The position numbers and the translations under genes were made by a program. 64,000 nt of DNA, taken from NCBI GenBank assembly GCA_049296855.1, contig JBAQTF010000010.1, positions 22,094 through 86,093 of the forward strand. Direction: 5' to 3'. The notes under the pieces were generated by a model. The model had not been told where the DNA came from and made no database searches. It worked only from the letters and a program-made list of their open reading frames with translations. Shown here piece after piece: positions 25,322 through 52,680 of the stretch. The stretch's first letter is position 1; each line of letters starts with the position of its first letter. This DNA is from Minisyncoccia bacterium. GTDB taxonomy: Bacteria > Patescibacteriota > Minisyncoccia > Phycocordibacterales > DATDWN01.

Positions 25322-26182
25322 TTATATACGGAGATTCAAAAGTACTCCTATACTCAGTACATCAATATGACTCCAAAATACAATTGCTGTGGCTAAAATT
25401 AAAAATGGGGCAAAAGGAACTTCTGTTTTTAAACTTATTTTATCTCTACTAGAAGTAAACCTATTATAGGCGAGAAGTGCAATACTCCATAGAGCTCCCA
25501 TCCAGAAAGCTAGAACTATAGCTGATGCTCCGAGAGTAAACCCTAAAAGTAGACCTATACCAAAAACCAGTTTTGCATCACCAAACCCAATCCACTTACC
25601 ATCTGACAAGAACCACAGTAGTGCAAATGGGACAAATAAAACAAATGGAGCGGACAGATCAAACATATCAAGTCTTGTTACGGAACTAAAAACAAAATGC
25701 TTACAATAGAAAAACAGACCTAATTTTAAGATGCCTAGTGCTATAAATGTGTAGACAAGAACATTTGGAATTATTTTGTGACGAATATCATAAAGAGTAA
25801 TAACTAAAAGTAGACTGAATACAATACAATAATATACAAAAAACATTATTGAGAAAAAAAGCCCGTGCTGAAAACCTCCATAAATAGACCAAAGTTTAAT
25901 CTGTCTTATGACTACTCCAAGAAAGATGAGACCAGTTAGAATCTCAACTATCATGTATTGCCAAGAAATAGAACTTTTACAAGTACGACATTTACCTCTA
26001 AGAAAAATAAAACTTAAAACTGGAAGAAGTTCATACCATCGCAGTTGTGTACTGCAGACGAAACATTTTGACCTACCCCGAGCAATAGAAAGTCCTGTGT
26101 TATAACGCAAAGCAACTACGTTTATGAAACTGCCGACGAGAGTCCCGAGAATAAATATGGAGATATAAAATAACAAATCCAT
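25322..26182 (-). CDS. pilD: Prepilin peptidase (A24 family)
   Basis: 286 aa, polytopic membrane protein with CxxC...CxxC (KCFVCSTQ...CRTCKSSI). Confidence 0.85.
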
Positions 26183-29922: not shown

Positions 29923-30317
29923 TAGTTTTTATTCTTATTATTATGGATAGATAATACTTGATCAACTACTTCTGAAGGTATAGACATTGCCTTGACAAGA
30001 TAACCGTCGACATCTAATGTTTTTGCTTTTTCTGAATCATCCACCTGGTTAGTCAGCATGATTATAGTCGCATTAGGCACAAGTTTTTCCTCCCTTATTT
30101 TTCCTAAAAGTTCTAAACCATCAATTCCAGGCATAATAACATCAAGTAAAACAATATCGTAATCATTGTTTTTTCTAAGTATTTCTAGCGCATTAGTACT
30201 ACTTGAAGATGTATCAAACTGTAAACCTAATTTTTTAAACTTCAAAGCGTACATATCGAGGAGAAAACGATCATCGTCCACAATAAGTATCTTTAAATCT
30301 TTTATTTCTTTAGACAT
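29922..30317 (-). CDS. Stand-alone response-regulator receiver domain (CheY/PilH-like)
   Basis: 131 aa. KILIVDDDRFLL ... DIVLLDVIMPGIDG, with phospho-acceptor Asp and Lys. Confidence 0.75.
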   Translation of the reverse strand: MSKEIKDLKILIVDDDRFLLDMYALKFKKLGLQFDTSSSSTNALEILRKNNDYDIVLLDVIMPGIDGLELLGKIREEKLVPNATIIMLTNQVDDSEKAKTLDVDGYLVKAMSIPSEVVDQVLSIHNNKNKN

Positions 30318-35550: not shown

Positions 35551-35563
35551 ATTCGCTTCAATG

Positions 35564-35651
35564 CGGACAGAGTGAGATTCGAACTCACGGTACCAATTAA
35601 GGTACGGCGGTTTAGTAAACCGCTGGTTTAAGCCACTCACCCATCTGTCCA
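35564..35651 (-). tRNA. Class II tRNA-Ser-like gene with a non-canonical anticodon loop (UUACUAA) and an 8-nt T-loop; possible pseudogene
   Basis: Acceptor GGACAGA/TCTGTCC with discriminator G, D-arm GGT..ACC, anticodon stem GCGGT/ACCGC with loop TTACTAA, long variable arm GTACC-ttaattg-GTAC, T-arm GTGAG-TTCGGAAT-CTCAC. Confidence 0.45.
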
Positions 35652-35845
35652 ATTTCTTCATATTAACACAAGATTTACATTTACGATCGCCTATAAAAAT
35701 GCTAATGTGTGGCTAAGTAAAATCAGTTTTAGATGGCTCAGATGCTAGGCGCTGACGAAGCTTGTGACCAAAGTGTATACGTATACTCTGCAGGAACAAC
35801 TGGAGTCAGCAACGACGCAGATGAATCATATCAAACTGATTTTTT

Positions 35846-35934
35846 GGAGACGTGTCAGAGTGGTCTATCGTACCTCTTTGCTAAAGAGGTGGAGGCTTTA
35901 AACCCTCCCGATGGTTCGAATCCATCCGTCTCCG
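35846..35934 (+). tRNA. tRNA-Ser (anticodon GCU)
   Basis: Acceptor GGAGACG/CGTCTCC with discriminator G, anticodon stem-loop CCTCT-TTGCTAA-AGAGG, long variable arm TGGAGG...CCTCCC, T-arm GATGG-TTCGAAT-CCATC. I could not fold a clean D-arm by hand. Confidence 0.7.
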
Positions 35935-37547
35935 CCCGAAACCCTTTTTCGTCCTACAAGAGCTTCAAAACCTTCCTTTAAGCTATATTTTAAGAGCTTT
36001 CTGTCTTTAATGACTATTTCGGAAAAAATCAAAGTTACAATTTCTCGCTTTTCACTATCAAGTGCGTGGTCAAAATAAATACTGGCATTTTTTATTAACT
36101 CTGAGAATGTAATTACGAACTTCAACATATCTTGAGCACTCTCTCCATAAACCTTAATTTCCTCCTCTATAGCAATTCTAGAGCCATTTAAACGGGTTTC
36201 TTCAGCAACTATATCTTCTGGTACCATTGCTTTCGTTCTCATTAAAGTAATTCTGTTTTCTGTAAGGAACTCAATGTTCTTACTAACCTCTCTATGTTTA
36301 TTATATAAGTCACTTAACTTCTTATCCCTTTGCCCTGCTATTATCGCTAGTTCTTTTTTTGCCTTAGATTCAATATCAGCTATTTCAGGGTCAGTAAAAT
36401 AAAGACCATCAATAATATTCTTAAACATAGAGGTTAATTCCTTTTCTGAAATATTTACATCTGGATTGTCACAGTCTAATTTACATCTTGATCTGTAGTA
36501 GGTATATCCTTTTTGTGGGTAAGGGCTGTAACATCTACCACAAGTACAATTAGCCATTCCACGATAAGCAAAAAATGGTTTATCAATATAACGAATTGTT
36601 TTTGAACGTTTTTTAAGAACTTCTTGAACTTTAATAAATAATGCACTATCAATTATAGGTTTATGTGCAGTGCTCGTTATATATTCATTGTGACCAATCT
36701 TAACTTTTCCTATGTAAAAAGGATTACTCAAAATTGATTCAACCGACTTATGATCAATCGGTCCAGAGACCTTCGGTAGCAAATCAAAATCAATTCCATT
36801 TTCCTGTTCCTCTTTAGTTCTCTTTCTTCTCTTGGGTCTTTTTGTTAAACCATTTTTTGTTGCCCATTTTGCAAGCTGCATAAAACTCCATTCTCCAGTC
36901 GCATACATTTCAAAAAGTCTTTTTATTAAAGGTGCTCTCTCGGGATCAATTGGTTTATTATCGGAGCCTCTATTAAGATAACCCAATGGAACGCTATATA
37001 TACATTTTCCTTCAGCTCTTAATTTTTCTTGACTGTATCTAACTTTTTCACTTATAACATCAGAATAATACTCAGCGAACATTCCTTGTACGTTCATATT
37101 GACCTTGCCTCCACTATTCTTATCAAACTGCATATCTGTGAATCTGATATCACATCCTTGCTCAACCAATCTCTGAATTATTACATTATCTTGGGCGTTT
37201 CTACTTGCTCTATCCCAGCAAAGAATAACAACCCCTTTAATTTTCTTGTCTTTCAGTAGTCGGATAAGTTTTACAAACTTTGGACGAAGGACACGATTAC
37301 TAAAAATGCCGTTTTCACCAATATCAAAATCATCATCTTCTTTATATCCAGAATGACTTTCATTTATAACTCCCTTTTCACAAAACCTTTCAATTGTTAG
37401 ATCAGCTATCGGGAGATTGTGTTTTCTCGCATATTCTTGATTAAGACTGCTCTGATATGTCAGAGAGTTTTTTTGATTCTCTTTATCATCAGTACTCTTT
37501 CGGTTATAAATCAAATATTTGTCTTTGTATTGATCTCCAATTTCCAT
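35898..37547 (-). CDS. Large serine recombinase (resolvase-domain integrase)
   Basis: 549 aa. N-terminal catalytic region LIYNRKSTDDKENQ, recombinase and zinc-ribbon regions with several Cys. The 3' end of the ORF overlaps the 3' end of tRNA-Ser(GCU). Confidence 0.85.
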   Translation of the reverse strand: MEIGDQYKDKYLIYNRKSTDDKENQKNSLTYQSSLNQEYARKHNLPIADLTIERFCEKGVINESHSGYKEDDDFDIGENGIFSNRVLRPKFVKLIRLLKDKKIKGVVILCWDRASRNAQDNVIIQRLVEQGCDIRFTDMQFDKNSGGKVNMNVQGMFAEYYSDVISEKVRYSQEKLRAEGKCIYSVPLGYLNRGSDNKPIDPERAPLIKRLFEMYATGEWSFMQLAKWATKNGLTKRPKRRKRTKEEQENGIDFDLLPKVSGPIDHKSVESILSNPFYIGKVKIGHNEYITSTAHKPIIDSALFIKVQEVLKKRSKTIRYIDKPFFAYRGMANCTCGRCYSPYPQKGYTYYRSRCKLDCDNPDVNISEKELTSMFKNIIDGLYFTDPEIADIESKAKKELAIIAGQRDKKLSDLYNKHREVSKNIEFLTENRITLMRTKAMVPEDIVAEETRLNGSRIAIEEEIKVYGESAQDMLKFVITFSELIKNASIYFDHALDSEKREIVTLIFSEIVIKDRKLLKYSLKEGFEALVGRKRVSGGDGWIRTIGRV

Positions 37548-40403: not shown

Positions 40404-40441
40404 AAGGCTAGATTTTCTAATCTTGCCGTGCTTAACTTAAT
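40404..40441 (+). repeat. 38-bp direct repeat, left copy
   Basis: AAGGCTAGATTTTCTAATCTTGCCGTGCTTAACTTAAT. It has one mismatch to the copy at 43179-43216. Confidence 0.8.
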
Positions 40442-40450
40442 GCAATTACA

Positions 40451-40921
40451 ATGAAAGACCTCCTGCAACAATTACTCTGGAAAACATTGGGATATGGTGT
40501 TGTACCAACAATAATCCTATGGAATGGCGACCATAGCCCAAAGACTTGGTTAATAACACTTCTTATCGTATTGGTAGTAAGCTCTCTTACTACTTATTAT
40601 TCTCTCTTAGATAAGAAAGAGGAAAAATATAAAAAAGATATATTTGCTATTCAACAAAAAGCACAGGCTGAAGTTACTGAAGCAACAAAGCTAAAAGAAA
40701 GAGCTGTAGTAGAACAAGAAATCTGGAAACAAACAATGCTAGAAAGAAATGCGGGGTTTAAAACGCTCCTGTCATATATAAGTTATTTTGAAAAATTAAG
40801 AGATGAACCAATAACACATTATCTACATACCAAAAAACATCCAGCTCCGTCTGCTGGAGAAGTCGTGAAGGAACAAACGAAAAGGCGTAGAGAAGCAGAT
40901 TTTCTAAACAAGAGAACATAA
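40451..40921 (+). CDS. Hypothetical membrane protein with a coiled-coil region
   Basis: 156 aa; TM segments at the N-terminus. Confidence 0.45.
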   Translation: MKDLLQQLLWKTLGYGVVPTIILWNGDHSPKTWLITLLIVLVVSSLTTYYSLLDKKEEKYKKDIFAIQQKAQAEVTEATKLKERAVVEQEIWKQTMLERNAGFKTLLSYISYFEKLRDEPITHYLHTKKHPAPSAGEVVKEQTKRRREADFLNKRT

Positions 40922-40933
40922 GCTCTTATAGAA

Positions 40934-41677
40934 ATGTACGAACAGTACGCACCCTTTCTTGTTGATCTAAAGGATGATATCCCTGACGTTGATGATGTAA
41001 AAATATTTGAAGAATATAGTGAAGAAGAAAGACAAGATGAGGTTGTTAATTATTTAACTAAAGAAGAGTACAGAAAACTTCCATCTGTAGAGAGAAATCA
41101 ACTTGCTCTAGATAGATTTTGGGATAGACCAAAATCTAAATGGCTTATAGGTAAATTATATGAAAGATACGTAGGCTTTTTATACGAACAGAAGGGTTAT
41201 AAAGTAAAGTACTTTGGAATAGACGAGAGATACGAAGATATGGGTAGAGATTTGATTTGTCACAAAGGTGATGAGACATTGATTATTCAATGTAAAAATT
41301 GGGCTGAGTTTAGAACGATATATGAAAAACATATTTTTCAACTTTTTGGAACAATCTTTGAATATAAAGAGTCACATCCAAATGAAAAAGTGAAAGCCAT
41401 CTTTTGTACTACAACTCAACTTTCACCACTAGCAAGAAAGATCGCAACCACATTAGGGATTGAACTATATGAAAACTTCAAGTTTGATAAAAAATATCCT
41501 TGCATAAAATGTAATATAAGCACTCAAGGCGACCAAAAGATCTACCATCTACCTTTTGACCAAAAATATGACGAGACTAAGATTGATAGAAAAGGAGAGA
41601 TGTATTGCATCACAGTAAAAGAAGCTGAGGAGGCAGGATTCAGAAGAGCATTCAGATGGCAGGGAGAAAAAGTGTAA
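40934..41677 (+). CDS. Mrr-like restriction-endonuclease-fold (PD-(D/E)xK) protein
   Basis: ERYEDMGRDLICHKGDETLIIQCKNW matches the Mrr_cat pattern (G-x-D ... E/Q-x-K); C-terminal CxxC... Confidence 0.6.
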   Translation: MYEQYAPFLVDLKDDIPDVDDVKIFEEYSEEERQDEVVNYLTKEEYRKLPSVERNQLALDRFWDRPKSKWLIGKLYERYVGFLYEQKGYKVKYFGIDERYEDMGRDLICHKGDETLIIQCKNWAEFRTIYEKHIFQLFGTIFEYKESHPNEKVKAIFCTTTQLSPLARKIATTLGIELYENFKFDKKYPCIKCNISTQGDQKIYHLPFDQKYDETKIDRKGEMYCITVKEAEEAGFRRAFRWQGEKV

Positions 41678-41695: not shown

Positions 41696-42901
41696 TTAAT
41701 AGAGCCATTCTAATTTTATTCTCCAATCGTGCCTATTTACTAAATTTATATCATTAGTAATTCCAGTTGAACGAGGATCAGCCATCATAAGGCTAATGCT
41801 GAATGTTTCCTTGATATTATTTGCATCACCCTTCCAAAGAACTTTGCTTATAAACTTTCTAGTCAAAGATTGTAGTTTATAAAGATTTTTCGTTATTAAT
41901 TCAATTTCCTCTTTTTCTAATGGAGTAAATCTGCCGTGAGCTATATTACTTCTCAAATCGTATAAGACATATTCTTTTCCACTCTTTCCTTTAATCTTTT
42001 TCTTAAAAGCCTTAAATGCATTGCTTTCTTTACCAAGAACAGCTTCTAAAACCTTTTTAGTCTTACTGTAATTACCTATTTCCTTATGGAATAGCTTTCC
42101 TAAAATCTTATTGAAAAAGTCTTTAACGAACTTCTTTTCTGCTTTCTGAAAACCATAATCTTTACTAGCTTCCATCTCACCATCGTGCAAATTCAAGGCT
42201 AGTTTTTCTAATGCGAAGTAATAACTCAAGAAACTTAAAAGAGGATTCTCATTAGATAGTCTATTTCCTTCTTGATACCAACTAATAACATTATCAAGTA
42301 AAACGCTGTCGTCTCCTTGAAATTTACGTACGTAGTCTTCAGCGATTCTAGTATCTTCGTCTGTTAAATTAATCATTCCACCACCCCCTCTACTACTATG
42401 CGGATATTTAAGAAACCAATCATATTTGGCATTAATTCCGTACGCTAATCTGTAAAGAAAGATGTTGATTAGATCCAGTCCTTCCTCTATTGCTTTAATG
42501 GTAATTTCTGGAATTTCTAAAGAACAATCATATACTTGCAAGTTTGCTTCAGTATTATTCTCTAAATTAACAACTTCAATCTTTCTCATATGTAGGTGAC
42601 CTATATCGTGGCTGACTCCACTGTCAGAGTAAGTTGTAGAGAAATTGCCTTTAACTATAAACTCTATAACAGGAAATCCTGTAGCTAACATATATTTTAA
42701 ACAACCTGTTATTCTATGATCTGTATCTTCGGTTACCATAGATCTTACTTTTTTATCTAATGCATCTATATCACCTAAATATAAAAGAGGTCTCCATTCT
42801 CCATATGGATTATATCGGGCAGGTATTGGTCTCGGATAAACAGGTAAGTCTTTGGTTTCTTCCATAACATCAATACTGTACCTATTTGGGTTTTCCATCA
42901 A
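41696..42901 (-). CDS. Hypothetical 401-aa protein with an R-x4-H HEPN-like motif
   Basis: ...EYVLYDLRSNIAHGRFTPLEKEE... carries R-x4-H. The same local motif ([IL]R[NS]xIAH[EG]) occurs in the protein at 17173..18582. Convergent with the Mrr-like gene. Confidence 0.5.
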   Translation of the reverse strand: MMENPNRYSIDVMEETKDLPVYPRPIPARYNPYGEWRPLLYLGDIDALDKKVRSMVTEDTDHRITGCLKYMLATGFPVIEFIVKGNFSTTYSDSGVSHDIGHLHMRKIEVVNLENNTEANLQVYDCSLEIPEITIKAIEEGLDLINIFLYRLAYGINAKYDWFLKYPHSSRGGGGMINLTDEDTRIAEDYVRKFQGDDSVLLDNVISWYQEGNRLSNENPLLSFLSYYFALEKLALNLHDGEMEASKDYGFQKAEKKFVKDFFNKILGKLFHKEIGNYSKTKKVLEAVLGKESNAFKAFKKKIKGKSGKEYVLYDLRSNIAHGRFTPLEKEEIELITKNLYKLQSLTRKFISKVLWKGDANNIKETFSISLMMADPRSTGITNDINLVNRHDWRIKLEWLY

Positions 42902-43178: not shown

Positions 43179-43216
43179 AAGGCTAGATTTTCTAATCTTG
43201 CTGTGCTTAACTTAAT
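43179..43216 (+). repeat. 38-bp direct repeat, right copy
   Basis: AAGGCTAGATTTTCTAATCTTGCTGTGCTTAACTTAAT. Confidence 0.8.
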
Positions 43217-44272: not shown

Positions 44273-45430
44273 ATGGATTACTTCAAACAATCAGTACTAC
44301 TTCACAAGAAACTCAAGGGGAAACTCGGTGTTCATTCAAAATCTCCCATCAAAAATAAGACTGATTTGTCTTTAGTTTACACACCTGGAGTTGCGGAGGT
44401 TTCAAGAGAGATAGCAAAAAACAAAAAGTTGGCTTACGACTACACTTTGAAATCAAATTCAGTTGCAGTTATATCTGACGGCTCAGCTGTTTTAGGACTT
44501 GGAAATATTGGCCCCTACGCCGCACTGCCTGTTATGGAGGGCAAAGCGCTTCTGTTTAAAGAATTTGCAAACATTGACGCCTACCCTATTTGCCTAGATA
44601 CACAGGATGTCGAGGAAATAATAAAAACGATAAAAATAATTTCCATTGGCTTTGGAGGAGTAAACCTCGAAGATATCTCTGCTCCCAGGTGCTTTGAGAT
44701 AGAAGAAAGGCTGAAGAAAGAGCTGAATATCCCTGTAATGCATGATGATCAACACGGCACCGCTATAGTTGTTCTATCTGCACTCATAAACTCACTTAAG
44801 GTAGTTAGAAAAAAGAAAGAAAAAGTAAAAATAATAATAAACGGGGCTGGTTCGGCGGCAATAGCAACAGCAAATTTACTTATGGAATATGGAATTCCTG
44901 GAATAAATATAATAATGCTCGATAGTAAAGGCACGATTCATACTGGAAGAGCCGACCTGAATAAATACAAAAGCATGATAGCAAAAAAGACAAACTCAAA
45001 ACAAGTAGATGGCGGATTGGGAGTTGCTTTAATTGATGCTGATGTTTTTATAGGAGTATCAACTGCAAATGTTTTGAAAAAAGAATGGATAAATCTAATG
45101 TCAGACGACCCAATAGTGTTTGCAATGGCCAATCCAAATCCAGAAATAAGCTTGGAAGAAGCTAAAAAGACAAAAATAAAAGTTTTTGGCACAGGAAGAA
45201 GTGACTACCCAAACCAGATAAACAATGTTTTGGTCTTTCCAGGTATTTTCCGAGGAGCATTAGACGCTAGAGCAAAATCCATAACAGAAAAAATGAAGCT
45301 AGCCTCCGCCGTAGCTATAGCAAACCTAGTTTCAAAAAGAGAATTGTCACAAAACTGCATCATTCCAAACCCTTTTGATAAACGTGTAGTTATCGCCGTA
45401 GCAAAAGCCGTCAAATCCTCCACAAAATAA
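44273..45430 (+). CDS. NAD(P)-dependent malic enzyme (short bacterial form)
   Basis: 385 aa. SLVYTPGVAEVSREIAKN..., Rossmann motif GAGSAAIATANLL. Confidence 0.85.
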   Translation: MDYFKQSVLLHKKLKGKLGVHSKSPIKNKTDLSLVYTPGVAEVSREIAKNKKLAYDYTLKSNSVAVISDGSAVLGLGNIGPYAALPVMEGKALLFKEFANIDAYPICLDTQDVEEIIKTIKIISIGFGGVNLEDISAPRCFEIEERLKKELNIPVMHDDQHGTAIVVLSALINSLKVVRKKKEKVKIIINGAGSAAIATANLLMEYGIPGINIIMLDSKGTIHTGRADLNKYKSMIAKKTNSKQVDGGLGVALIDADVFIGVSTANVLKKEWINLMSDDPIVFAMANPNPEISLEEAKKTKIKVFGTGRSDYPNQINNVLVFPGIFRGALDARAKSITEKMKLASAVAIANLVSKRELSQNCIIPNPFDKRVVIAVAKAVKSSTK

Positions 45431-45610
45431 TACCCCCAACTCCTCTTCAAGGTCGAACCTTGAAGTAACGTGTATGTGTATATTATATATTGATCAAGGC
45501 GAGAGGAGAAATTTAGAACCTAACTTCTTACAGAAGACAAATCTTGTAAAGAAAAGCACCTTATAGTAGAGTGGTGCCCATCGGAAAAAGTCTGACTAAC
45601 TGATTTTCTT

Positions 45611-46855
45611 ATGGAAAAAATTGAGGGGAAACAAGACAAACGGCTAGATAAAATTGAACAAGAACTCAAAAAAGGAACTGATCTTTCAATCATTAGTTTA
45701 ATTAACTATATAGTAGAAAAAGCTCATCAAAGTGGTGTCTCTGACATCCACATCGATCCAGGAAATAAAAAAGTTCGTGTTAGATTTAGAATAGATGGAG
45801 TTTTACAAGAAATGTACATTTTTCCAAAAGAAATTCACGGGGAAGTTATTTCTCGTATAAAAGTTCTAGCAAAACTTCGTACTGACGAACACCAAGCAAC
45901 TCAAGACGGACGTTTTAGACATTTGTTTCCTGACACAAATGAATTCGTCGACATACGTGTTTCCATAGTTCCAACATATCACGGCGAAAATACTGTTATG
46001 CGACTACTTTCTGACAAAGCAGCAAACTACAGTCTGGAGAACCTCGGTTTTAGTGAAAGTGATAGAAACAAAATTTTAGAAGCAATAAAAAAATCTAGTG
46101 GAATGATCCTCGCTACTGGTCCAACAGGCTCTGGAAAAACAACTACATTGTATACACTGATAAAAATGTTAAACCGTCCAGAAGTATCAATTATTACCAT
46201 CGAAGACCCTATTGAGTACGCCATTGATAATATTGAGCAAATACAGGTAAACGCTAAGGCTGGACTGACTTTTGCGAACGGTCTTCGCTCAATTCTTCGC
46301 CAAGATCCAAATATCATCATGGTCGGCGAGATTCGCGACTCTGAAACAGCTAGTATTGCCGTGAATACTGCTTTGACTGGACATTTACTCCTCTCAACTC
46401 TCCATACCAGTGACGCTGCAACTACCCTACCTCGTCTATTAGATATGGGAATAGAGGAATATCTCGTTGCATCTACAGTTAGTATCGCGATAGGTCAAAG
46501 ACTCGTTCGAAAAATATGTACAAAATGTAAAGTGAAAATGGAGACGACTCCCATGTTAAAAGAATCTATATCTAAAATGCCTTTTGGTTCTCTAGTTCGA
46601 GATGACCATGTTTTCTACAGAGGAAAAGGTTGTGAAAAATGCAACGACAGTGGTTATCTAGGCAGAATCTGTATAAACGAAGTTTTGGTTGCAGATGAAG
46701 TAATTCGTGAAGCAATTCTGCAAAAGAAATCATCAAATGATATTCGTAACATAGCTATAGGTCATGGAATGACAACAATGTTGCAGGATGGTTTTCTAAA
46801 ATGTCTATCGGGGGAGACGACAATCGAAGAAATTCTACGAGTAATCCAAAACTAA
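45611..46855 (+). CDS. GspE/PilB-family secretion ATPase, second copy, without an N-terminal GSPII_E_N domain
   Basis: GPTGSGKTTTLYTLIKML, His box STLHTSDAATT, C-terminal tetracysteine CTKC...CEKC. Confidence 0.85.
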   Translation: MEKIEGKQDKRLDKIEQELKKGTDLSIISLINYIVEKAHQSGVSDIHIDPGNKKVRVRFRIDGVLQEMYIFPKEIHGEVISRIKVLAKLRTDEHQATQDGRFRHLFPDTNEFVDIRVSIVPTYHGENTVMRLLSDKAANYSLENLGFSESDRNKILEAIKKSSGMILATGPTGSGKTTTLYTLIKMLNRPEVSIITIEDPIEYAIDNIEQIQVNAKAGLTFANGLRSILRQDPNIIMVGEIRDSETASIAVNTALTGHLLLSTLHTSDAATTLPRLLDMGIEEYLVASTVSIAIGQRLVRKICTKCKVKMETTPMLKESISKMPFGSLVRDDHVFYRGKGCEKCNDSGYLGRICINEVLVADEVIREAILQKKSSNDIRNIAIGHGMTTMLQDGFLKCLSGETTIEEILRVIQN

Positions 46856-46868
46856 TAAAGACACAAAA

Positions 46869-47972
46869 ATGAAAAAAAACAAACCTCAAAGTCTACTTAC
46901 TAAAATAAGTAAAATATCTGTCAACAGAATGTCTGGAAAAGACCTGGTATTTTTTATAAAAAGATTATCTTTCCTTATAAAAGCTGGTATACCAGTACTA
47001 GATAGTCTGCAAATGATACGAGAGCAGACACGAGGAAAAGTCTATGGACGTATGCTTGATACGGTCATAGATGATGTTTCCAATGGACAATACCTTTCAA
47101 CGAGTCTTTCCAGATACAAGAACATGTTCGGTGAATTTTCTATAAACATAATCGGTTTCGGTGAATCGACTGGAATACTGTCTGACAACTTGGAATATCT
47201 TGCCGATGAATTGAAAAAAAGACAAACTCTCCGCAAAAAAGTCATTGGGGCTTTTATTTATCCAGCTATTGTAACACTAGCAACTTTTGGTATCACCGCA
47301 TTCCTCATGATCTATCTTTTTCCAAAAATACTTCCAGTCTTTTCTAGCATCCACATGGAGTTACCGCTTTCAACACGAATTGTCATGTTTCTTTCAAATT
47401 CTATTATAAATTATGGTCTCATAGGTCTAGGCATTATTTTTATATTTGTAATAACTTTTGTCGTCACTTTAAAACGTAGTAAAAAATTCCATTTTTACTT
47501 TGACAAATTTCTACTAAAAACACCTATTCTAGGAACGACTCTTCAATACTACAACCTAGCAAACTGCACTCGTACAATGGGCCTACTTCTAAAAAGTGGT
47601 ATCACCATAAGCGATGCTCTACCGATAGTAGTAAAAACAACCGTTAACCTTGTTTATAAAAAAGAATTCGACAATCTTTCTCGTATTGTAAGTAAGGGGG
47701 AAAAAATGTCTAACTATCTAAAAAGCAGACGAACAATATTCCCCGACGTCATTAGTCAGATTATTTCCGTTGGAGAACGGAGCGGTAACCTAGAAAACTC
47801 GTTGGTTTATCTTTCGGAAATGTACGAGGCTGAAGTCGATGATTTCACAAAAAATCTATCTGGATTGATTGAGCCAATACTTATGATTTTCATGGGTATA
47901 TTGGTCGGCTTTATAGCAATTTCTATTATCACACCGATTTATGGAATTACCCAACATCTACAACCTAAATAA
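46869..47972 (+). CDS. GspF/PilC-family platform protein, second copy
   Basis: 367 aa with duplicated GspF domains and 3 TM segments. Confidence 0.85.
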   Translation: MKKNKPQSLLTKISKISVNRMSGKDLVFFIKRLSFLIKAGIPVLDSLQMIREQTRGKVYGRMLDTVIDDVSNGQYLSTSLSRYKNMFGEFSINIIGFGESTGILSDNLEYLADELKKRQTLRKKVIGAFIYPAIVTLATFGITAFLMIYLFPKILPVFSSIHMELPLSTRIVMFLSNSIINYGLIGLGIIFIFVITFVVTLKRSKKFHFYFDKFLLKTPILGTTLQYYNLANCTRTMGLLLKSGITISDALPIVVKTTVNLVYKKEFDNLSRIVSKGEKMSNYLKSRRTIFPDVISQIISVGERSGNLENSLVYLSEMYEAEVDDFTKNLSGLIEPILMIFMGILVGFIAISIITPIYGITQHLQPK

Positions 47973-48402
47973 AGGTATCACTTTGATCGAAGTGATAATC
48001 GTTATAGCTATAATTGGGCTAATAATTAGTCTCGGAACGGTCGTTAGTTTTGGTTCTTATCAAAAATACTACTTCCGTTCAGAAAACACTATTTTAGTTT
48101 CGATATTGATGAGAGCTCGAAGCCGAGCGATGAGCAATTCATATGAAAGCCCACACGGAGTATGTTATGTATCTCCAAATTATATTATTTTCCGTGGGAC
48201 AATATGCAATAGTGTGCTTGGAACAAATGAATTAATTCCTGCAAATACTGAAATAGCAAACTTGTCTAACTTTTCTGGAACTTTTCCAACTGTTGTTTTC
48301 ACCCAACTTTCTGGTATCACAACCACAGCAACAATCCACATCACAGATGGTATTTCAACTCAAGACATTACAATAAACAACGAGGGTGTAATAGATTGGT
48401 AA
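47941..48402 (+). CDS. Pseudopilin
   Basis: NKGITLIEVIIVIAIIGLIISLG prepilin-like N-terminus. Confidence 0.6.
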   Translation: MELPNIYNLNKGITLIEVIIVIAIIGLIISLGTVVSFGSYQKYYFRSENTILVSILMRARSRAMSNSYESPHGVCYVSPNYIIFRGTICNSVLGTNELIPANTEIANLSNFSGTFPTVVFTQLSGITTTATIHITDGISTQDITINNEGVIDW

Positions 48403-48403
48403 A

Positions 48404-49882
48404 ATGAAAACGCAAATAAAAAATAAAGGTAGTATAACAATGGAAATACTTCTTGCATTCACAATACTTATTTTGTGCCTTAGCGCTGTTATTCTGGTTG
48501 GCTTTGGTAACCAGAAAATAACAGTGGACTCAGAAATAAATATCGAAGCACTTTCTAAAGCAGGAAAGGTACTAGAAGATGCTAGAGCTTTGTCACGACA
48601 AGATTATCCGTCTGTCACAGCGACTACAGGTACAGAAACTGTAAACGGCCTACAATACACTAAGACGTTAAGTATTAATGATATAACTCAGTGCAAAAAA
48701 CAAGCTATGTCAACTATTACATGGACAACTGAAGGACGGTCACAAAAGATTGAACTCGTAACATATCTATCTGATATAGCCGGGGCTATGACGCTTGGTG
48801 GTGATTGTATAGGTGAACCTGGCCCAAACTGGAACAATCCGAAAAAATTTGCATCTGATAATATGAGTCCAGGAAAATCTACAGCGATTGACATTTCGAA
48901 TCGTATAGCTTATTTAGGTTCTGACAAAAATCCATATTTCTATATAGCTGATACAAGAAGTGCAACTTTAGGTCAGACTAGCGGCTTGTTTGTAACATTT
49001 ACAAATAATTTTACGACCGACGACACAATTAATTCACTTGATGCAGTTCATAACAGCACAACTGATAAAAATTATGTTTTTGCGGTATTAGCATCCTCGA
49101 CTGCTCAACTTATAGTTATAGACACCACTGATATTTATAACCCGACTCTAGTCGCAAAAAAGCGTTTATCAGCTTGTGTCGCTGGATCATTCCCAGAAGG
49201 GTGGCGACTTTATTATTACAAAGATCGTATTTACTTAACGACTCGTTATACTGCTGGACCTGAGTTTCATATTTTTAATGTCAGCGACCCAACTAATCCA
49301 GTAGAATTTTCGATTGGAAGTGTTGGGTGTAAAGGATTAGATTTAGGAAATACAGTAAACGGTATGGTAGTAGCAGAGCAGAAAATTGGCGGTATAACAA
49401 AACGTTTTATTTATTTTGCAACAGATGAAAGTGATAAGGAACTCAGAGTTTTTGACATAACAAGTTCAATCAACCCAATAGAAGTCACAACAGCAAATCA
49501 GGACTTAAGTGGCGCACAAAATGGACAAAGTGTTTATATCATTGGGAATAAACTGTTTTTTGGGAGACAGTCCACTCCATCTGGACCAGATCTTTATGTA
49601 TATAACATAAGTGACCCTTTTTCAGGACTTCCCCTTCTTGGTTCAAAAGATATTACTACTGGTGTCCTTCAAATACGTGTATCTGGAAAATTTGCTTTTC
49701 TTGCAACTCCACAATCAAACAAAGAATTTCAAGTCTGGGATATTTCTGACCTTTCAAATATCTCACTGATTAAAGCTTACAACTTTGGAAACATAGTCGA
49801 ACAAGGTGTCGACTATGAGCCTGATTGGATTTATGCCACTGGTCAAGCTACTCCTAACTTCCAAATGCTTTATAACCAGTAA
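48404..49882 (+). CDS. Pseudopilin-anchored LVIVD-repeat beta-propeller protein (putative pilus-tip adhesin)
   Basis: N-terminal pilin-like helix (KGSITMEILLAFTILILCLSAVILVG). At least six repeats of the LVIVD type (YIADTRSATLG, LIVIDTTDIYNPTLVA, IFNVSDPTNPVEF, VFDITSSINPIEV, VYNISDPFSGLPLLG, VWDISDLSNISLI). Confidence 0.6.
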   Translation: MKTQIKNKGSITMEILLAFTILILCLSAVILVGFGNQKITVDSEINIEALSKAGKVLEDARALSRQDYPSVTATTGTETVNGLQYTKTLSINDITQCKKQAMSTITWTTEGRSQKIELVTYLSDIAGAMTLGGDCIGEPGPNWNNPKKFASDNMSPGKSTAIDISNRIAYLGSDKNPYFYIADTRSATLGQTSGLFVTFTNNFTTDDTINSLDAVHNSTTDKNYVFAVLASSTAQLIVIDTTDIYNPTLVAKKRLSACVAGSFPEGWRLYYYKDRIYLTTRYTAGPEFHIFNVSDPTNPVEFSIGSVGCKGLDLGNTVNGMVVAEQKIGGITKRFIYFATDESDKELRVFDITSSINPIEVTTANQDLSGAQNGQSVYIIGNKLFFGRQSTPSGPDLYVYNISDPFSGLPLLGSKDITTGVLQIRVSGKFAFLATPQSNKEFQVWDISDLSNISLIKAYNFGNIVEQGVDYEPDWIYATGQATPNFQMLYNQ

Positions 49883-49892
49883 TCTGAAAAAT

Positions 49893-50384
49893 ATGAAAGA
49901 TTCGAAAAAAAATTCTGGTGGTTTCACAATAATCGAGGTTGTTATTTATATCGCCCTTTTTTCTATTCTCATGACCGGGTGCCTCACTGTCGCCTACCAA
50001 CTTTTAGACGGATCTGGGAAGTTAAATAGTAAATCAGTGATTGAAAACGAGGGTAATTTTGTTTTACGAAAATTCGCTTGGGTATTGACAGGAATCGATC
50101 CAGCAATAGTTCCGACCACAGGTGGCTCTGGATGTTTACAAACTTTAACTATTAGCAAAACAGACAGCACAGTGAGTCCTGTTGTCATCAGATTAAACAC
50201 TATATCGGGAATAAATTACATCGAAATACAAAGAAATGGTGGATCATTCTACCCAATCACTACCATAAATGTTTCACCAACATGTCTTAAATTTTCTCTT
50301 ATTTCTGGAACTCCAACAGGGGTAAGTGCGATTGCAACTATTAGTGGAGTTGATTTCTCAATGACGAAATACGTCCGTAAATAA
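49893..50384 (+). CDS. Pseudopilin
   Basis: SGGFTIIEVVIYIALFSILM prepilin motif. The start is set at the internal ATG at 49893. Confidence 0.6.
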   Translation: MKDSKKNSGGFTIIEVVIYIALFSILMTGCLTVAYQLLDGSGKLNSKSVIENEGNFVLRKFAWVLTGIDPAIVPTTGGSGCLQTLTISKTDSTVSPVVIRLNTISGINYIEIQRNGGSFYPITTINVSPTCLKFSLISGTPTGVSAIATISGVDFSMTKYVRK

Positions 50385-50387
50385 AAT

Positions 50388-50789
50388 ATGAAACAAAAAA
50401 CAGAAAAAAATAAAGGTTTTATAGCTTTGATATCGGTCGTATTTATTTCCACTATACTACTTCTAGTTGCCGTAACACTTTCTCTTTCTGGGTTTTATGG
50501 ACGTTATAATATTTTAGACTCCGAATTAAAAGATCGAAGCTTTGCTCTAGCTGAAGCCTGCGCTGATACAGCTCTCCTCAAACTTGCAAACGATAGTAGC
50601 TACAATCCTATAGATGAAATCATAAACATAAATATTGACAGTTGTTTAATTAAGAGCGTTGCAGTCAGTGATAGTAATAAAATAATTCTTATTAAAGAAA
50701 ATTACAAAAACTATTACACTAATTTGAGAATTACTGTTGACTCTATTACACTTTCTGTAATTTCGTGGGAGGAAGTGCCAATATTATAA
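50388..50789 (+). CDS. Pseudopilin-like protein (GspJ/K-like)
   Basis: NKGFIALISVVFISTILLLVAVTLSL N-terminus. Confidence 0.5.
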   Translation: MKQKTEKNKGFIALISVVFISTILLLVAVTLSLSGFYGRYNILDSELKDRSFALAEACADTALLKLANDSSYNPIDEIININIDSCLIKSVAVSDSNKIILIKENYKNYYTNLRITVDSITLSVISWEEVPIL

Positions 50790-50872
50790 AGGATTCACAA
50801 AAACATAAACTTGTGATAGCCTGAGCGAATCTTAAAAAGAATAGAATTACAAACTTAACTTAACTTACCAAT

Positions 50873-51367
50873 ATGAAGAAAACAGCAAAGATTAAGGGTT
50901 TTACGTTGATTGAAATCTTGGTTGTTATAGGTATCATTGCCGTGCTAGCGACTATTGTGATCATAGCAATTAACCCAGCTCGACAGTTCGCTCAAGCTCG
51001 AAATACTCAAAGACAAGCAAATATAAACTCAATTCTAAACGCGATCGGACAACATATTGCAGACAACAAGGGTATCTTTCTAGGTGGATCTCCTGCTTGT
51101 CCAGCCCTTGCAGTTAGTACAGCAAGCTCAAGTATCATGATTGAAGCAGGAACTCCTCCAACTTTACCATCAACCAATATTAATCTGTCATGTCTTGTCC
51201 CTACTTATATACCATCATTTCCAACTGACCCTGACACAACATTTGCTGTTACTGGTTATAGTGGATACGATATAAGTACAGATGCAAATGGACGAGTTAT
51301 GGTTTGTGCTTCAAAAGCACAGGAACCTGCGATTTCTGGAAGTACAGGAATCTGTGTGATTCGGTAA
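50873..51367 (+). CDS. Type IV pilin / major pseudopilin
   Basis: MKKTAKIKGFTLIEILVVIGIIAVLATIV. Confidence 0.75.
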   Translation: MKKTAKIKGFTLIEILVVIGIIAVLATIVIIAINPARQFAQARNTQRQANINSILNAIGQHIADNKGIFLGGSPACPALAVSTASSSIMIEAGTPPTLPSTNINLSCLVPTYIPSFPTDPDTTFAVTGYSGYDISTDANGRVMVCASKAQEPAISGSTGICVIR

Positions 51368-51443
51368 TAAAGACTATTTTGTTTAAATATGTTTACTTGA
51401 CTTTATTTTTATATATGATACAATGAAAGGAGGAGGTTAGCAG

Positions 51444-51653
51444 ATGCTGAACCAGTTGATGAGCTACGTCATCATCTCGCTCTTAATGTTGTTCGGTTTC
51501 GACGTTCTGCTTTTCCAGGAAAATGCCTGGCGACGCGGGATGACCAGACGGGTACTCCGCTGGGGATGGAACCTAGCGGTGCGATTCGTCGCTTACCTCC
51601 TTCGTCTTGGAGGTGTTCTGGTTACAATATTCATTCTCGGCCATCTACCATGA
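51444..51653 (+). CDS. GC-rich small (69 aa) two-TM peptide with an Arg/Trp-rich loop
   Basis: Strong Shine-Dalgarno AAAGGAGGAGG 8 nt upstream of the start. MLNQLMSYVIISLLMLFGFDVLLF...RRGMTRRVLRWGWNLAVRFVAYLLRLGGVLVTIFILG. Confidence 0.4.
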   Translation: MLNQLMSYVIISLLMLFGFDVLLFQENAWRRGMTRRVLRWGWNLAVRFVAYLLRLGGVLVTIFILGHLP

Positions 51654-51729
51654 GGAAGTAGATGGCCTTTTCGTTTGTCTAAAATATCTCAAAATATTGT
51701 GCGACACTGAATTATGCTAGAATTTAGTC

Positions 51730-52680
51730 ATGTCTTCTCTTAAACAACTCAAACAACAATTCCTAGAATATATCGAGATAGAAAAGGGTCGCTCTCTCAA
51801 AACTGTCGAGAACTACGACCATTATCTCACTCGCTTTTTAAACTTTACAAAAAATGATGACCCAGGGAAAATCACACCCGATTCCGTACGTGAATTCCGT
51901 CTCTGGCTCAACAGACAATCCGCCACCCAGAGTAAAACTGGAAATGAAACTCTCTCTCGAAAAACTCAGAATTACTATCTCATCGCTCTACGCGCTTTTC
52001 TCAAATATCTTGCAAGACAGGAAATAAAGTCTCTTCCGGCAGAACGTATTGAGTTGGCAAAAGTTGCGGAAAGATCACTTGACCTTATCACTAAAGCAGA
52101 ACTTTCTCGTTTACTTTCCTCTCCAAAAGGCACAGATCTAAAGGATCTCCGTGACAAAGCTATTTTTGAGCTTTTATTTTCAACTGGTCTCCGTGTTTCC
52201 GAGCTCTGTTCTCTCACCTCTGACATTGATCTAACTTCCGACGAACTTTCTATTCGAGGTAAGGGAGGTAAAGTTCGCGTTGTTTTTATTTCAGATGAAG
52301 CAAAAAAATGTTTGAAGGCTTATTTATCAGTGCGCAAAGACATGAGTGATGCACTTTTTGTCCAGATAGAAAGAGAGACTGGAAAAGAAACGTCAAAAAA
52401 AGGAAGTAATAAGGTAAAAACTAAAAATGTGAATCCCCTAACAAAAAGATCTATAGAGAGAATAATAAAACAGCATGCAATAAAAGCTGGGATTTCCAAA
52501 AAAGTAACTCCTCACACCATGCGCCACCTTTTCGCAACCGATCTCTTATCAAACGGCGCAGACATCCGCTCTGTACAAGCACTCCTTGGTCACTCAAGCA
52601 TTATTACCACCCAAATTTATACTCATGTGACGGATAAACACCTAAGTGATATTCATAAAAAATTTCACAATAGAGGTTAA
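51730..52680 (+). CDS. Tyrosine recombinase of the XerC/XerD type
   Basis: Catalytic R...HxxR...Y: HTMRHLFATDLLSNGADIRSVQALLGHSSIITTQIYTHV. It carries a Lys-rich insertion. Confidence 0.85.
   Translation: MSSLKQLKQQFLEYIEIEKGRSLKTVENYDHYLTRFLNFTKNDDPGKITPDSVREFRLWLNRQSATQSKTGNETLSRKTQNYYLIALRAFLKYLARQEIKSLPAERIELAKVAERSLDLITKAELSRLLSSPKGTDLKDLRDKAIFELLFSTGLRVSELCSLTSDIDLTSDELSIRGKGGKVRVVFISDEAKKCLKAYLSVRKDMSDALFVQIERETGKETSKKGSNKVKTKNVNPLTKRSIERIIKQHAIKAGISKKVTPHTMRHLFATDLLSNGADIRSVQALLGHSSIITTQIYTHVTDKHLSDIHKKFHNRG

What the first reader, a model, noticed from the sequence alone, without database searches (positions are those of the whole stretch)
45611..51367. Second T2SS/T4P-like apparatus whose largest pseudopilin is fused to an LVIVD-repeat beta-propeller
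Separate from the complete pilM-to-pilD competence-pilus locus, this locus encodes a short GspE-type ATPase with no N1 domain, a GspF platform, four pseudopilins and a pilin. One 492-aa pseudopilin carries at least 6 LVIVD-type repeats behind its pilin helix. A propeller displayed on a pilus fits a tip adhesin. In an episymbiotic CPR-type organism this would be a candidate host-attachment device. There is no secretin, PilM/N/O or prepilin peptidase here, so it would share PilD with the other locus.
Basis: partly seen in the sequence, partly recalled or inferred. Interest (0 to 1): 0.55.

Follow-up and report, generated by a model that had tools for sequence, protein, structure and literature searches.

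The report
Pilus operon with propeller-tipped minor pilin
A Parcubacteria (candidate phyla radiation) genome carries a compact seven-gene pilus operon in which one tip-type pilin subunit is fused to a seven-bladed beta-propeller, a likely surface-binding device; the protein architecture is already catalogued, and an analogous propeller pilin has been tested in Saccharibacteria.

Summary
Window 45611-51367 (+) is a tightly packed seven-gene operon. It encodes a PilB/GspE-class assembly ATPase without an N-terminal domain, a PilC/GspF platform, four minor pilins and a major pilin.

- **A core tip set.** The four minor pilins follow the H-I-J-K pattern: a GspH-like subunit, the propeller pilin (module closest to ComGE/PilV/GspI, below threshold), a J-position pilin, and a Glu5-less pilin whose model best matches GspK.
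- **Distribution.** Gene order is conserved in about 26 other Patescibacteria species genomes. The family has 1353 clusters at E<=1e-30.
- **Missing parts.** No secretin, PilMNO, PilT or peptidase lies in the locus. PilD is in the other pilus locus of the window.

Most likely this is a Com-like type IV filament that displays the propeller at its tip as a ligand-binding module. That function is inferred, not shown.

It is not new in kind. Pilin-LVIVD architectures are listed in Raynaud et al. 2021. A propeller-bearing minor pilin (PilX2) is needed for efficient host binding in Saccharibacteria TM7x. Interest is moderate.

The parts
45611..46855 (+). Assembly (extension) ATPase of the PilB/GspE class, 414 aa, made of N2 and C-terminal domains only. 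It has Walker A 170-177, Asp box 197-202, Walker B 235-243, His box 256-265 and a tetracysteine zinc motif at C303/C306/C341/C344.
   Evidence: PF00437 E=2e-121. NCBIfam GspE 491 bits and PilB 461 bits, both below cut-off, with matches starting at model positions 92 and 164. PDB PilF, GspE and PilB all score about 333 bits. 42% identical to the locus-1 PilB. Motifs.
46869..47972 (+). Platform protein (PilC/GspF/ComGB type), 367 aa.
   Evidence: PF00482 with two stretches, E=3.6e-51. GspF 268 bits, below the cut-off of 424. 29% identical to the locus-1 PilC.
47941..48402 (+). H-type minor pilin, 153 aa, with signal ...NKG|ITLIE.
   Evidence: N_methyl 27 bits. Pfam GspH 20.8 bits (cut-off 21). 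NCBIfam gspH E=1e-4. Orthologs keep G|F[TS]xIE.
48404..49882 (+). Modular minor pilin, 492 aa: leader residues 1-9 (MKTQIKNKG|), pilin module residues 10-135, then the propeller.
   Evidence: AlphaFold2 pLDDT 91.4, pTM 0.86. G9, E14, C97 and C135 are invariant in 57 homologs. 253 near full-length homologs. 1353 clusters at E<=1e-30.
48431..48808 (+). Pilin module of the 492-aa protein: alpha1 helix residues 10-66, a 4-stranded sheet residues 74-123, and an invariant Cys97-Cys135 pair.
   Evidence: for secondary structure. Family members hit ComGE (20 of 23), PilV (14 of 23), XpsI (13 of 23) and GspI (5 of 23), all below the cut-offs.
48842..49873 (+). Seven-bladed LVIVD-type beta-propeller, residues 147-490. 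It is acidic.
49893..50384 (+). J-position minor pilin, 163 aa, with signal ...SGG|FTIIE.
   Evidence: N_methyl 29 bits. Start confirmed by an independent gene call. Family hits to ComGF, GspJ, ComGE and GspH are mixed, so the type is assigned by position only.
50388..50789 (+). K-type minor pilin without Glu5, 133 aa, with signal ...KNKG|FIALI. Probable cap subunit.
50873..51367 (+). Candidate major pilin, 164 aa, with signal ...KIKG|FTLIE. It has the highest Gly+Ala+Ser+Thr (GAST) content of the locus.
   Evidence: N_methyl 28.8 bits. GAST 37.2% against about 25% for the cytoplasmic and membrane parts. Similar to the locus-1 pilin only in the N-terminal helix. Present at the operon end in 16 distinct related loci.
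25322..26182 (-). Prepilin peptidase PilD of the other pilus locus. It is the only A24 peptidase found in the window and is presumed to process the five prepilins of this operon.
   Evidence: PF06750 E=4e-30 and PF01478 E=6e-10. Sharing is inferred.

Best explanation
This is a self-contained, minimal type IV filament operon of a Parcubacteria (class Minisyncoccia) bacterium. Its organisation resembles the ComG operon of monoderm bacteria: ATPase, platform and five prepilins, with no PilMNO, PilT or secretin.

Proposed mechanism:

1. PilD, encoded in the other pilus locus, cleaves the five prepilins.
2. The four minor pilins form a GspH-I-J-K-like priming complex on the platform. The Glu5-less K-type subunit sits on top.
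3. The ATPase then drives polymerisation of the 164-aa major pilin beneath this complex, so the complex ends up at the filament tip.
4. The I-type subunit carries a covalently fused, disulfide-stapled, acidic seven-bladed LVIVD beta-propeller. The filament therefore presents the propeller at or near its tip as a ligand-binding module. The ligand is most likely a conserved surface component of a partner cell or substrate.

Shown here:
- the gene content;
- the prepilin signals;
- the predicted pilin and propeller folds;
- the GspK-like fold of the cap subunit;
- conserved synteny.

Inferred:
- processing by the shared PilD;
- the tip location;
- the adhesive function.
For: - Family hits for all parts.
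- Intact ATPase motifs.
- Gly-1 and Glu+5 invariant in 57 homologs of the propeller pilin.
- The pilin module is closest to the I-type minor pilins ComGE, PilV, XpsI and GspI.
- The downstream 133-aa protein lacks Glu5 in every ortholog with a recognisable signal. Its model best matches GspK and XcpX.
- The order E-F-H-P-J-K(-G) is conserved in about 26 other GTDB species genomes (Zambryski-, Giovannoni-, Vogel-, Adlerbacteria and other Paceibacterota), with differing flanks. A WWE3 genome keeps the order except for the K gene.
- An invariant Cys97-Cys135 pair and a strictly co-occurring Cys258/Cys309 pair fit an extracytoplasmic protein.
- Some relatives add C-terminal extensions of 80-300 aa; one of them has a weak, sub-threshold Ig-like hit.
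- Precedents: in Saccharibacteria TM7x the beta-propeller minor pilin PilX2 is needed for efficient host binding (PMC11623550). Modular pilins are argued to be tip-displayed adhesins (PMC8179133).
Against: - No experiment or expression data exist for this organism.
- The lifestyle of this lineage is unknown.
- The I-type and J-type assignments rest on sub-threshold hits, driven mostly by the N-terminal helix, and on gene order.
- The propeller is more conserved (median 54% identity) than the four minor-pilin modules (37-45%). This argues against a rapidly evolving host-specific adhesin and allows a structural, priming or enzymatic role.
- PilD sharing is untested; only 64 kb of the genome was seen.
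Confidence: 0.6

Rival explanations
1. DNA-uptake (competence) pseudopilus. The operon would be the Parcubacterial counterpart of ComG, and the tip propeller would capture extracellular DNA, as the modular pilin ComZ is proposed to do in Thermus.
For: - Same parts list and near-identical gene order as comGA-GG: an ATPase without an N-terminal domain, a platform and five prepilins, with no PilMNO or PilT.
- The pilin module most often hits ComGE.
- Patescibacteria are enriched in competence genes (PMC11665869).
Against: - The propeller domain is acidic throughout the family: median pI 4.68, net charge -10, range -30 to 0. This is unfavourable for DNA binding.
- ComGA (260 bits, cut-off 300) and ComGB (145 bits, cut-off 240) are below threshold.
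- No ComEA, ComEC or DprA lies next to the operon in the window or in the two other neighbourhoods with gene calls.
- The YncE match is no better than matches to dozens of unrelated WD40 proteins.
- The other locus, which has PilT, is at least as good a candidate for DNA uptake.
Confidence: 0.13
2. Secretion pseudopilus of T2SS type. A short piston-like pseudopilus would push proteins through the wall or S-layer, with the propeller acting as a substrate-docking cap.
For: - The best NCBIfam models are GspE and GspF. Orthologs score about 30 bits higher on GspE than on PilB.
- A GspH-like subunit and a GspK-like subunit are present.
- There is no retraction ATPase in the locus.
Against: - All Gsp scores are below the equivalog cut-offs.
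- There is no N1E domain.
- No GspC, L, M or secretin GspD lies in the locus or among the window ORFs scanned.
- From established knowledge, Patescibacteria lack an outer membrane, so the defining T2SS context is missing.
- From established knowledge, H-I-J-K sets are shared by T4aP and Com systems too.
Confidence: 0.1
3. The propeller is not an adhesin. It would be a conserved priming or plug module needed for filament biogenesis (a PilY1-like role), or a tip-displayed enzyme acting on an envelope polymer.
For: - The propeller is the most conserved extracellular part of the operon.
- Several polar residues are invariant or nearly so (D134, Q235, E287, H289, E346, R388, Q443). By the strand order of the model, those within the blades lie mostly in the loops between the second and third strands, on one face.
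- Seven-bladed propellers include enzymes, for example a lactonase among the Foldseek hits.
Against: - There is no match to any enzyme family or to PilY1 (PF05567) at E<=1.
- From published work as I recall it, the PilY1 propeller docks non-covalently on the minor pilins. Here the pilin module already provides that link.
- In TM7x, loss of PilX2 did not prevent filament extrusion.
Confidence: 0.15

Closest known systems
PilX2 of Nanosynbacter lyticus TM7x (Saccharibacteria T4P-2; Grossman et al., PMC11623550 / ISME J 2025)
   Same: It is a minor pilin of a second pilus system in a Patescibacterium. It carries a C-terminal seven-bladed beta-propeller and is encoded among other minor pilins and a major pilin. 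It is proposed as a tip adhesin, and its deletion lowers host binding.
   Different: - The PilX2 propeller is described as RCC1-type. This protein hits LVIVD and shows no RCC1 match.
- PilX2 was not predicted to have a PilD signal. This family has invariant Gly-1 and Glu+5.
- The TM7x T4P-2 machinery has its own PilM, PilN and PilO and is split over separate loci. Here ATPase, platform and pilins form one operon without PilMNO.
- No direct sequence comparison was possible.
Modular type IV pilins (S. sanguinis PilB and PilC; Raynaud et al. 2021, PMC8179133), including the catalogued IPR012902-IPR013211 (N-methyl + LVIVD) architectures
   Same: A small pilin module carries a bulky functional module grafted to its C-terminus. 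Such pilins are argued to be tip-exposed adhesins. Dataset S1 of that paper already lists pilin-LVIVD architectures with 1, 2, 5 and up to 12 repeats, many from candidate phyla. IPR013211 is the LVIVD repeat.
   Different: - The paper calls the LVIVD motif 'of unknown function' and does not analyse its fold, operon or tip-complex context.
- S. sanguinis uses vWA and lectin modules, not a propeller.
PilY1/PilC tip adhesin of type IVa pili
   Same: A beta-propeller protein sits with the four core minor pilins at the pilus tip and mediates adhesion.
   Different: - PilY1 is not a pilin and associates non-covalently.
- Its propeller family (PF05567/IPR008707) is not matched here.
- In PilY1 the conserved propeller is the docking part and the variable N-terminus is the effector. 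Here the pilin module docks and the propeller is the displayed part.
GspH-I-J-K minor pseudopilin set and the GspK-I-J tip complex of the T2SS (PDB 3ci0, 5vtm)
   Same: The gene order is H-I-J-K. The last subunit lacks Glu5, and its model is most similar to GspK and XcpX. An H-like first subunit is present.
   Different: - The K-type subunit is minimal (133 aa) and lacks the alpha-domain of GspK.
- The I-type subunit is enlarged by 350 aa.
- There is no secretin and no GspC, L or M.
- The organism lacks an outer membrane (established knowledge).
ComG competence pilus operon of Firmicutes
   Same: It is a monoderm-type minimal operon with an ATPase lacking an N-terminal domain, a platform and five prepilins. 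The peptidase is encoded elsewhere, and there is no PilMNO or PilT.
   Different: - The major pilin is the last gene, not the third.
- ComGA and ComGB models score below their cut-offs.
- No Com minor pilin carries a propeller.

Membership tests
Type IV filament superfamily / type IV pilin | Class III signal peptide: short basic leader ending in Gly, Glu at +5, then a hydrophobic alpha1N helix | tested here: met
   Four of the five pilins have G|xxxxE. For the 492-aa protein, G9 and E14 are invariant in 57 homologs. The fifth pilin lacks Glu5, as GspK-type subunits do.
Type IV filament superfamily / type IV pilin | Pilin fold: a long N-terminal helix packed on an antiparallel beta-sheet | tested here: met
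   AlphaFold2 gives helix 10-66 plus a 4-stranded sheet in the 492-aa protein, and helix 9-68 plus a 5-stranded sheet in the 133-aa protein. Both models have pLDDT above 91. These are predictions, not solved structures.
Type IV filament superfamily / type IV pilin | Dedicated assembly ATPase, polytopic platform protein and prepilin peptidase | tested here: met
   T2SSE and T2SSF hits in the operon. An A24 peptidase lies at 25322-26182 in the other locus. Cleavage by it is not testable here.
Modular pilin (sensu Raynaud et al. 2021) | An N-terminal pilin module followed by a domain not specific to pilus biology | tested here: met
   Pilin module residues 10-135, then an LVIVD propeller at residues 147-490. 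Relative P0129 passes Pfam N_methyl and hits LVIVD just below its cut-off.
LVIVD repeat family (PF08309) | Score above Pfam's gathering threshold | tested here: met
   25.2 bits against 20.2, for one stretch at residues 423-460. Relatives reach 72 bits. The other six blades are seen only in the model.
Type II secretion system | GspE and GspF equivalog scores; GspE N1 domain | tested here: not met
   GspE 491 bits against a cut-off of 630. GspF 268 bits against 424. The match starts at GspE position 92.
Type II secretion system | Secretin GspD and assembly-platform proteins GspC, L and M | tested here: not met
   None are in the operon or its flanks, and none were found among the window ORFs scanned. 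The rest of the genome was not seen.
Type IVa pilus | PilM, PilN and PilO alignment proteins, the PilT retraction ATPase, and the PilB equivalog score | tested here: not met
   These genes are absent from this operon and present only in the other locus. PilB scores 461 bits against a cut-off of 676.
Com (ComG) competence pilus | ComGA and ComGB equivalog scores | tested here: not met
   ComGA 260 bits against 300. ComGB 145 bits against 240. The operon layout is similar. Phylogenetic placement in the Com clade was not tested.
PilY1/PilC adhesins | PilY1-type C-terminal propeller (PF05567) | tested here: not met
GspK-type cap minor pilin (the 133-aa protein) | Lacks Glu5; pilin core structurally like GspK | tested here: met
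GspI/PilV/ComGE-type minor pilin (pilin module of the 492-aa protein) | Sequence match to I-type models; position between the H-type and J-type genes | tested here: inconclusive
   Hits to ComGE (20 of 23), PilV (14 of 23), XpsI (13 of 23) and GspI (5 of 23) are all below the cut-offs and driven mostly by the helix. The gene position fits. A profile search against PDB sequences gave nothing significant.

The most novel reading that the evidence does not exclude
The propeller is more conserved than the pilin modules around it. It may therefore be a tip-mounted receptor or enzyme for one widely shared envelope polymer, for example a wall glycan of bacterial or archaeal hosts. That would give Parcubacteria a common, lineage-wide contact device whose ligand reveals what these uncultured cells attach to.
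Probability: 0.12. Interest if true: 0.7.

Novelty: new member of a known kind. Interest (0 to 1): 0.38.

Why it matters
Parcubacteria are among the largest uncultured bacterial groups, and for most of them neither partners nor mode of contact are known. This operon is compact and conserved across many of their lineages. It puts a well-folded, soluble-looking propeller on a pilus tip subunit. That gives a concrete bait (residues about 139-492) for ligand or host identification and a marker gene for comparative surveys. It also extends the theme of a propeller on a minor pilin from Saccharibacteria, where it has been tested, to a second Patescibacterial class that uses an unrelated repeat family. 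This suggests the same solution arose more than once.

Tried and rejected
- **Promoter and terminator scans of 45300-51800.** Counts were no higher than in shuffles, so operon boundaries rest on spacing only.
- **Profile of the pilin module against PDB sequences.** Nothing significant; the best hit was a geopilin helix at E=0.23.
- **AFDB (afdb50) fold search.** The library was unavailable.
- **First genome scan with the 57-sequence alignment.** It failed for lack of a conserved stretch and was repeated with 15 sequences.
- **NCBIfam typing of the J-position pilin.** Hits were mixed and did not discriminate.
- **NCBIfam typing of the K-type pilin.** It is essentially undetected by sequence models.
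- **GspE versus PilB assignment of the ATPase.** Differences of about 30 bits, below the cut-offs, together with tied PDB scores, do not settle it.
- **DNA-receptor idea.** Weakened by the acidic charge of the propeller.
- **Literature search for LVIVD plus pilin.** No relevant paper beyond the catalogue in Raynaud et al..

Full report
**1. What is there**

They are packed with gaps of -32 to +83 nt. The fifth ORF is listed mechanically from a GTG at 49806. Its real start is the ATG at 49893 (MKDSKKNSGG|FTIIE), 10 nt after the preceding stop. An independent gene call on an identical contig gives the same 163-aa product.

Pfam and NCBIfam give:
- T2SSE (E=2e-121) for the 414-aa protein;
- T2SSF (E=3.6e-51) for the 367-aa protein;
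- N_methyl for three of the five small proteins;
- a near-threshold GspH hit for the 153-aa protein;
- LVIVD (25.2 bits, threshold 20.2) for the 492-aa protein.

The flanks are housekeeping genes: malic enzyme and a SWIB protein upstream, then a XerC/D-like recombinase, an exonuclease III-type nuclease and a CCA-adding enzyme downstream.

The exact 492-aa protein is on record from an NCBI metagenome-assembled genome labelled Minisyncoccia bacterium, the Parcubacteria part of the candidate phyla radiation.

The other pilus locus is also real. It holds PilM, two unassigned small proteins, PilB with an MshEN domain, a response regulator, PilT, PilC, two pilins, PilD (25322-26182) and three to four more pilins.

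**2. The ATPase and platform**

The ATPase has all catalytic motifs and the tetracysteine zinc motif typical of extension ATPases. It aligns to GspE only from model position 92 and to PilB from position 164. It therefore consists of the N2 and C-terminal domains only.

The label 'GspE-type' is weak:
- GspE scores 491 bits and PilB 461 bits, both far below the equivalog cut-offs.
- Solved PilF, GspE and PilB structures tie at about 333 bits.
- Orthologs show the same advantage of about 30 bits for the GspE model.

The ATPase is 42% identical to the PilB of the other locus, and the platform is 29% identical to that locus's PilC. These are old paralogs and not a recent duplication.

**3. The 492-aa protein**

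Its N-terminus reads MKTQIKNKG|SITMEILLAF. In an alignment of 57 homologs (39-64% identical), Gly9 (position -1) and Glu14 (position +5) are invariant. Every sequence shows a short basic leader followed by a hydrophobic helix.

AlphaFold2 on that alignment gives pLDDT 91.4 and pTM 0.86. The model has:
- a 57-residue helix (10-66);
- a four-stranded antiparallel sheet (74-123);
- a short linker with an invariant GGDC motif;
- seven groups of three or four strands between residues 147 and 490.

The repeats do model as a propeller, and the N-terminus is a prepilin signal with a pilin fold.

Cys97 and Cys135 are invariant. Cys258 and Cys309 are either both present (30 of 57) or both absent. This pattern fits disulfides in an exported protein.

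**4. The minor-pilin set**

Orthologs from related loci show canonical G|FxxxE signals for the 153-aa, 163-aa and 164-aa proteins. The 133-aa protein always reads G|F[IV]AL[ILF]S, without Glu5. From established knowledge of type II secretion and type IV pili, absence of Glu5 marks the GspK-type subunit that caps the tip complex.

The pilin module of the 492-aa family most often hits ComGE (20 of 23 members), PilV (14), XpsI (13) and GspI (5). These are the I-type subunits. All hits are below the cut-offs.

The order H-like, I-like with propeller, J-position, K-like matches the order of gspH-I-J-K, and, from established knowledge, of fimU-pilV-pilW-pilX and comGD-GG. The I and J assignments remain tentative.

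The 164-aa protein has the highest Gly+Ala+Ser+Thr content of the locus (37%). It ends the operon and is the likely major pilin.

**5. Conservation**

- Near full-length homologs (about 470-520 aa) are numerous. A word-indexed search found 253.
- A profile search found 1353 clusters at 50% identity with E<=1e-30. Nearly all of the top 150 match from the pilin N-terminus to the last blade.
- A scan of GTDB species genomes found 32 loci, all labelled as Patescibacteria apart from one titled only 'bacterium'. They include Zambryski-, Giovannoni-, Vogel-, Adler- and Colwellbacteria, other Paceibacterota, and one WWE3 genome. Several records carry a generic 'uncultured Candidatus Saccharibacteria' title that I could not verify.
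- In about 26 of these loci the order ATPase, platform, H, propeller pilin, J, K holds. The major pilin follows in 16 distinct loci. Flanking genes differ between loci.
- Some relatives carry a further 80-300 residues after the propeller; in one of them part of the extension gives a weak, sub-threshold Ig-like hit. Relative P0129 passes Pfam N_methyl and hits LVIVD just below its cut-off.
- Across 12 loci with all parts, median identity to the window proteins is as follows:

| Part | Median identity |
|---|---|
| ATPase | 67% |
| Propeller | 54% |
| Platform | 51% |
| K-type pilin | 45% |
| Pilin module of the 492-aa protein | 44% |
| H-type pilin | 40% |
| J-position pilin | 37% |

The displayed propeller is thus the best-conserved extracellular part of the operon.

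**6. How it most likely works**

The parts list matches a minimal type IV filament of the monoderm (ComG-like) layout. I propose the following:

1. PilD of the other locus processes the prepilins.
2. The four minor pilins prime assembly and remain at the tip, with the K-type subunit on top.
3. The I-type subunit presents its propeller there as a binding module.

Two precedents support this. In Saccharibacteria TM7x, the minor pilin PilX2 carries a seven-bladed propeller, and its loss halves host binding without abolishing filaments (PMC11623550). Modular pilins in general are argued to be tip-displayed adhesins (PMC8179133).

Tip location, adhesion and PilD sharing are inferences.

Two observations qualify the host-adhesin reading. 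The propeller is strongly conserved, which suggests a conserved ligand or another role. The lifestyle of this lineage is also unknown.

The propeller's acidic charge (median pI 4.7, net charge -10) argues against a DNA-receptor role. The absence of any T2SS-specific part argues against a secretion system.

**7. Comparison with what is known, and novelty**

The protein is not a PilY1 (no PF05567 match). It is not detectably RCC1-type like PilX2.

The operon does not meet the thresholds for GspE/F, PilB or ComGA/GB. I therefore file it only as a type IV filament system with a modular minor pilin.

The architecture itself is not new. Dataset S1 of Raynaud et al. 2021 lists N-methyl (IPR012902) plus IPR013211 architectures with one to twelve repeats. 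IPR013211 is the LVIVD repeat. That paper calls the motif 'of unknown function'.

This analysis adds four things:
- the fold;
- the conserved seven-gene operon;
- the H-I-J-K context with a GspK-like cap;
- the conservation pattern.

I found no paper describing this operon in Parcubacteria.

**Verdict.** The feature is real, well defined and widespread. It is a new member of a known kind and of moderate interest.

Noticed in passing
window 40404-40441 and 43179-43216: A 38-nt direct repeat (97% identical, 2775 nt apart) brackets four ORFs. These are 40451-40921, an Mrr-like restriction endonuclease at 40934-41677, an unassigned 401-aa ORF at 41696-42901 (-) and a 93-aa ORF. GC content here is low (0.33). 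This may be a small insertion with att-like ends.
   Followed up: partly
window 35563-37547: A large serine recombinase (35898-37547, - strand; Resolvase and Recombinase domains) abuts two tRNA-Ser calls. One has an unusual ACT anticodon (35563-35650, -). The other (35845-35937, +, GCT) overlaps the end of the recombinase ORF. This may be an element integrated at tRNA-Ser.
   Followed up: no
window 30341-32074 (-) versus 45611-46855 (+): The PilB of the first pilus locus has lost the tetracysteine zinc motif; it has only two Cys and no CxxC. The short ATPase of the second locus keeps C303/C306/C341/C344.
   Followed up: partly
window 29922-30317 (-): A stand-alone response-regulator receiver gene sits between pilB and pilT in the first pilus locus. 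This suggests phosphorelay control of extension and retraction.
   Followed up: no
window 48404-49882, residues 258 and 309: In the propeller-pilin family, Cys258 and Cys309 are either both present (30 of 57 sequences) or both absent, never one alone. This suggests an optional second disulfide inside the propeller.
   Followed up: partly
L031 3224-8263 (WWE3 genome) and proteins P0129, P0141, P0183: There are variants of the theme. A WWE3 locus has a full-length 559-aa ATPase with an N-terminal domain and a 628-aa propeller protein. Some relatives of about 800 aa add roughly 300 residues after the propeller, with a weak, sub-threshold Ig-like hit in one of them.
   Followed up: partly
window 17173-18582 (-): A 469-aa protein has weak SH3_3 and GW-type hits and may be a wall-binding surface protein.
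   Followed up: no
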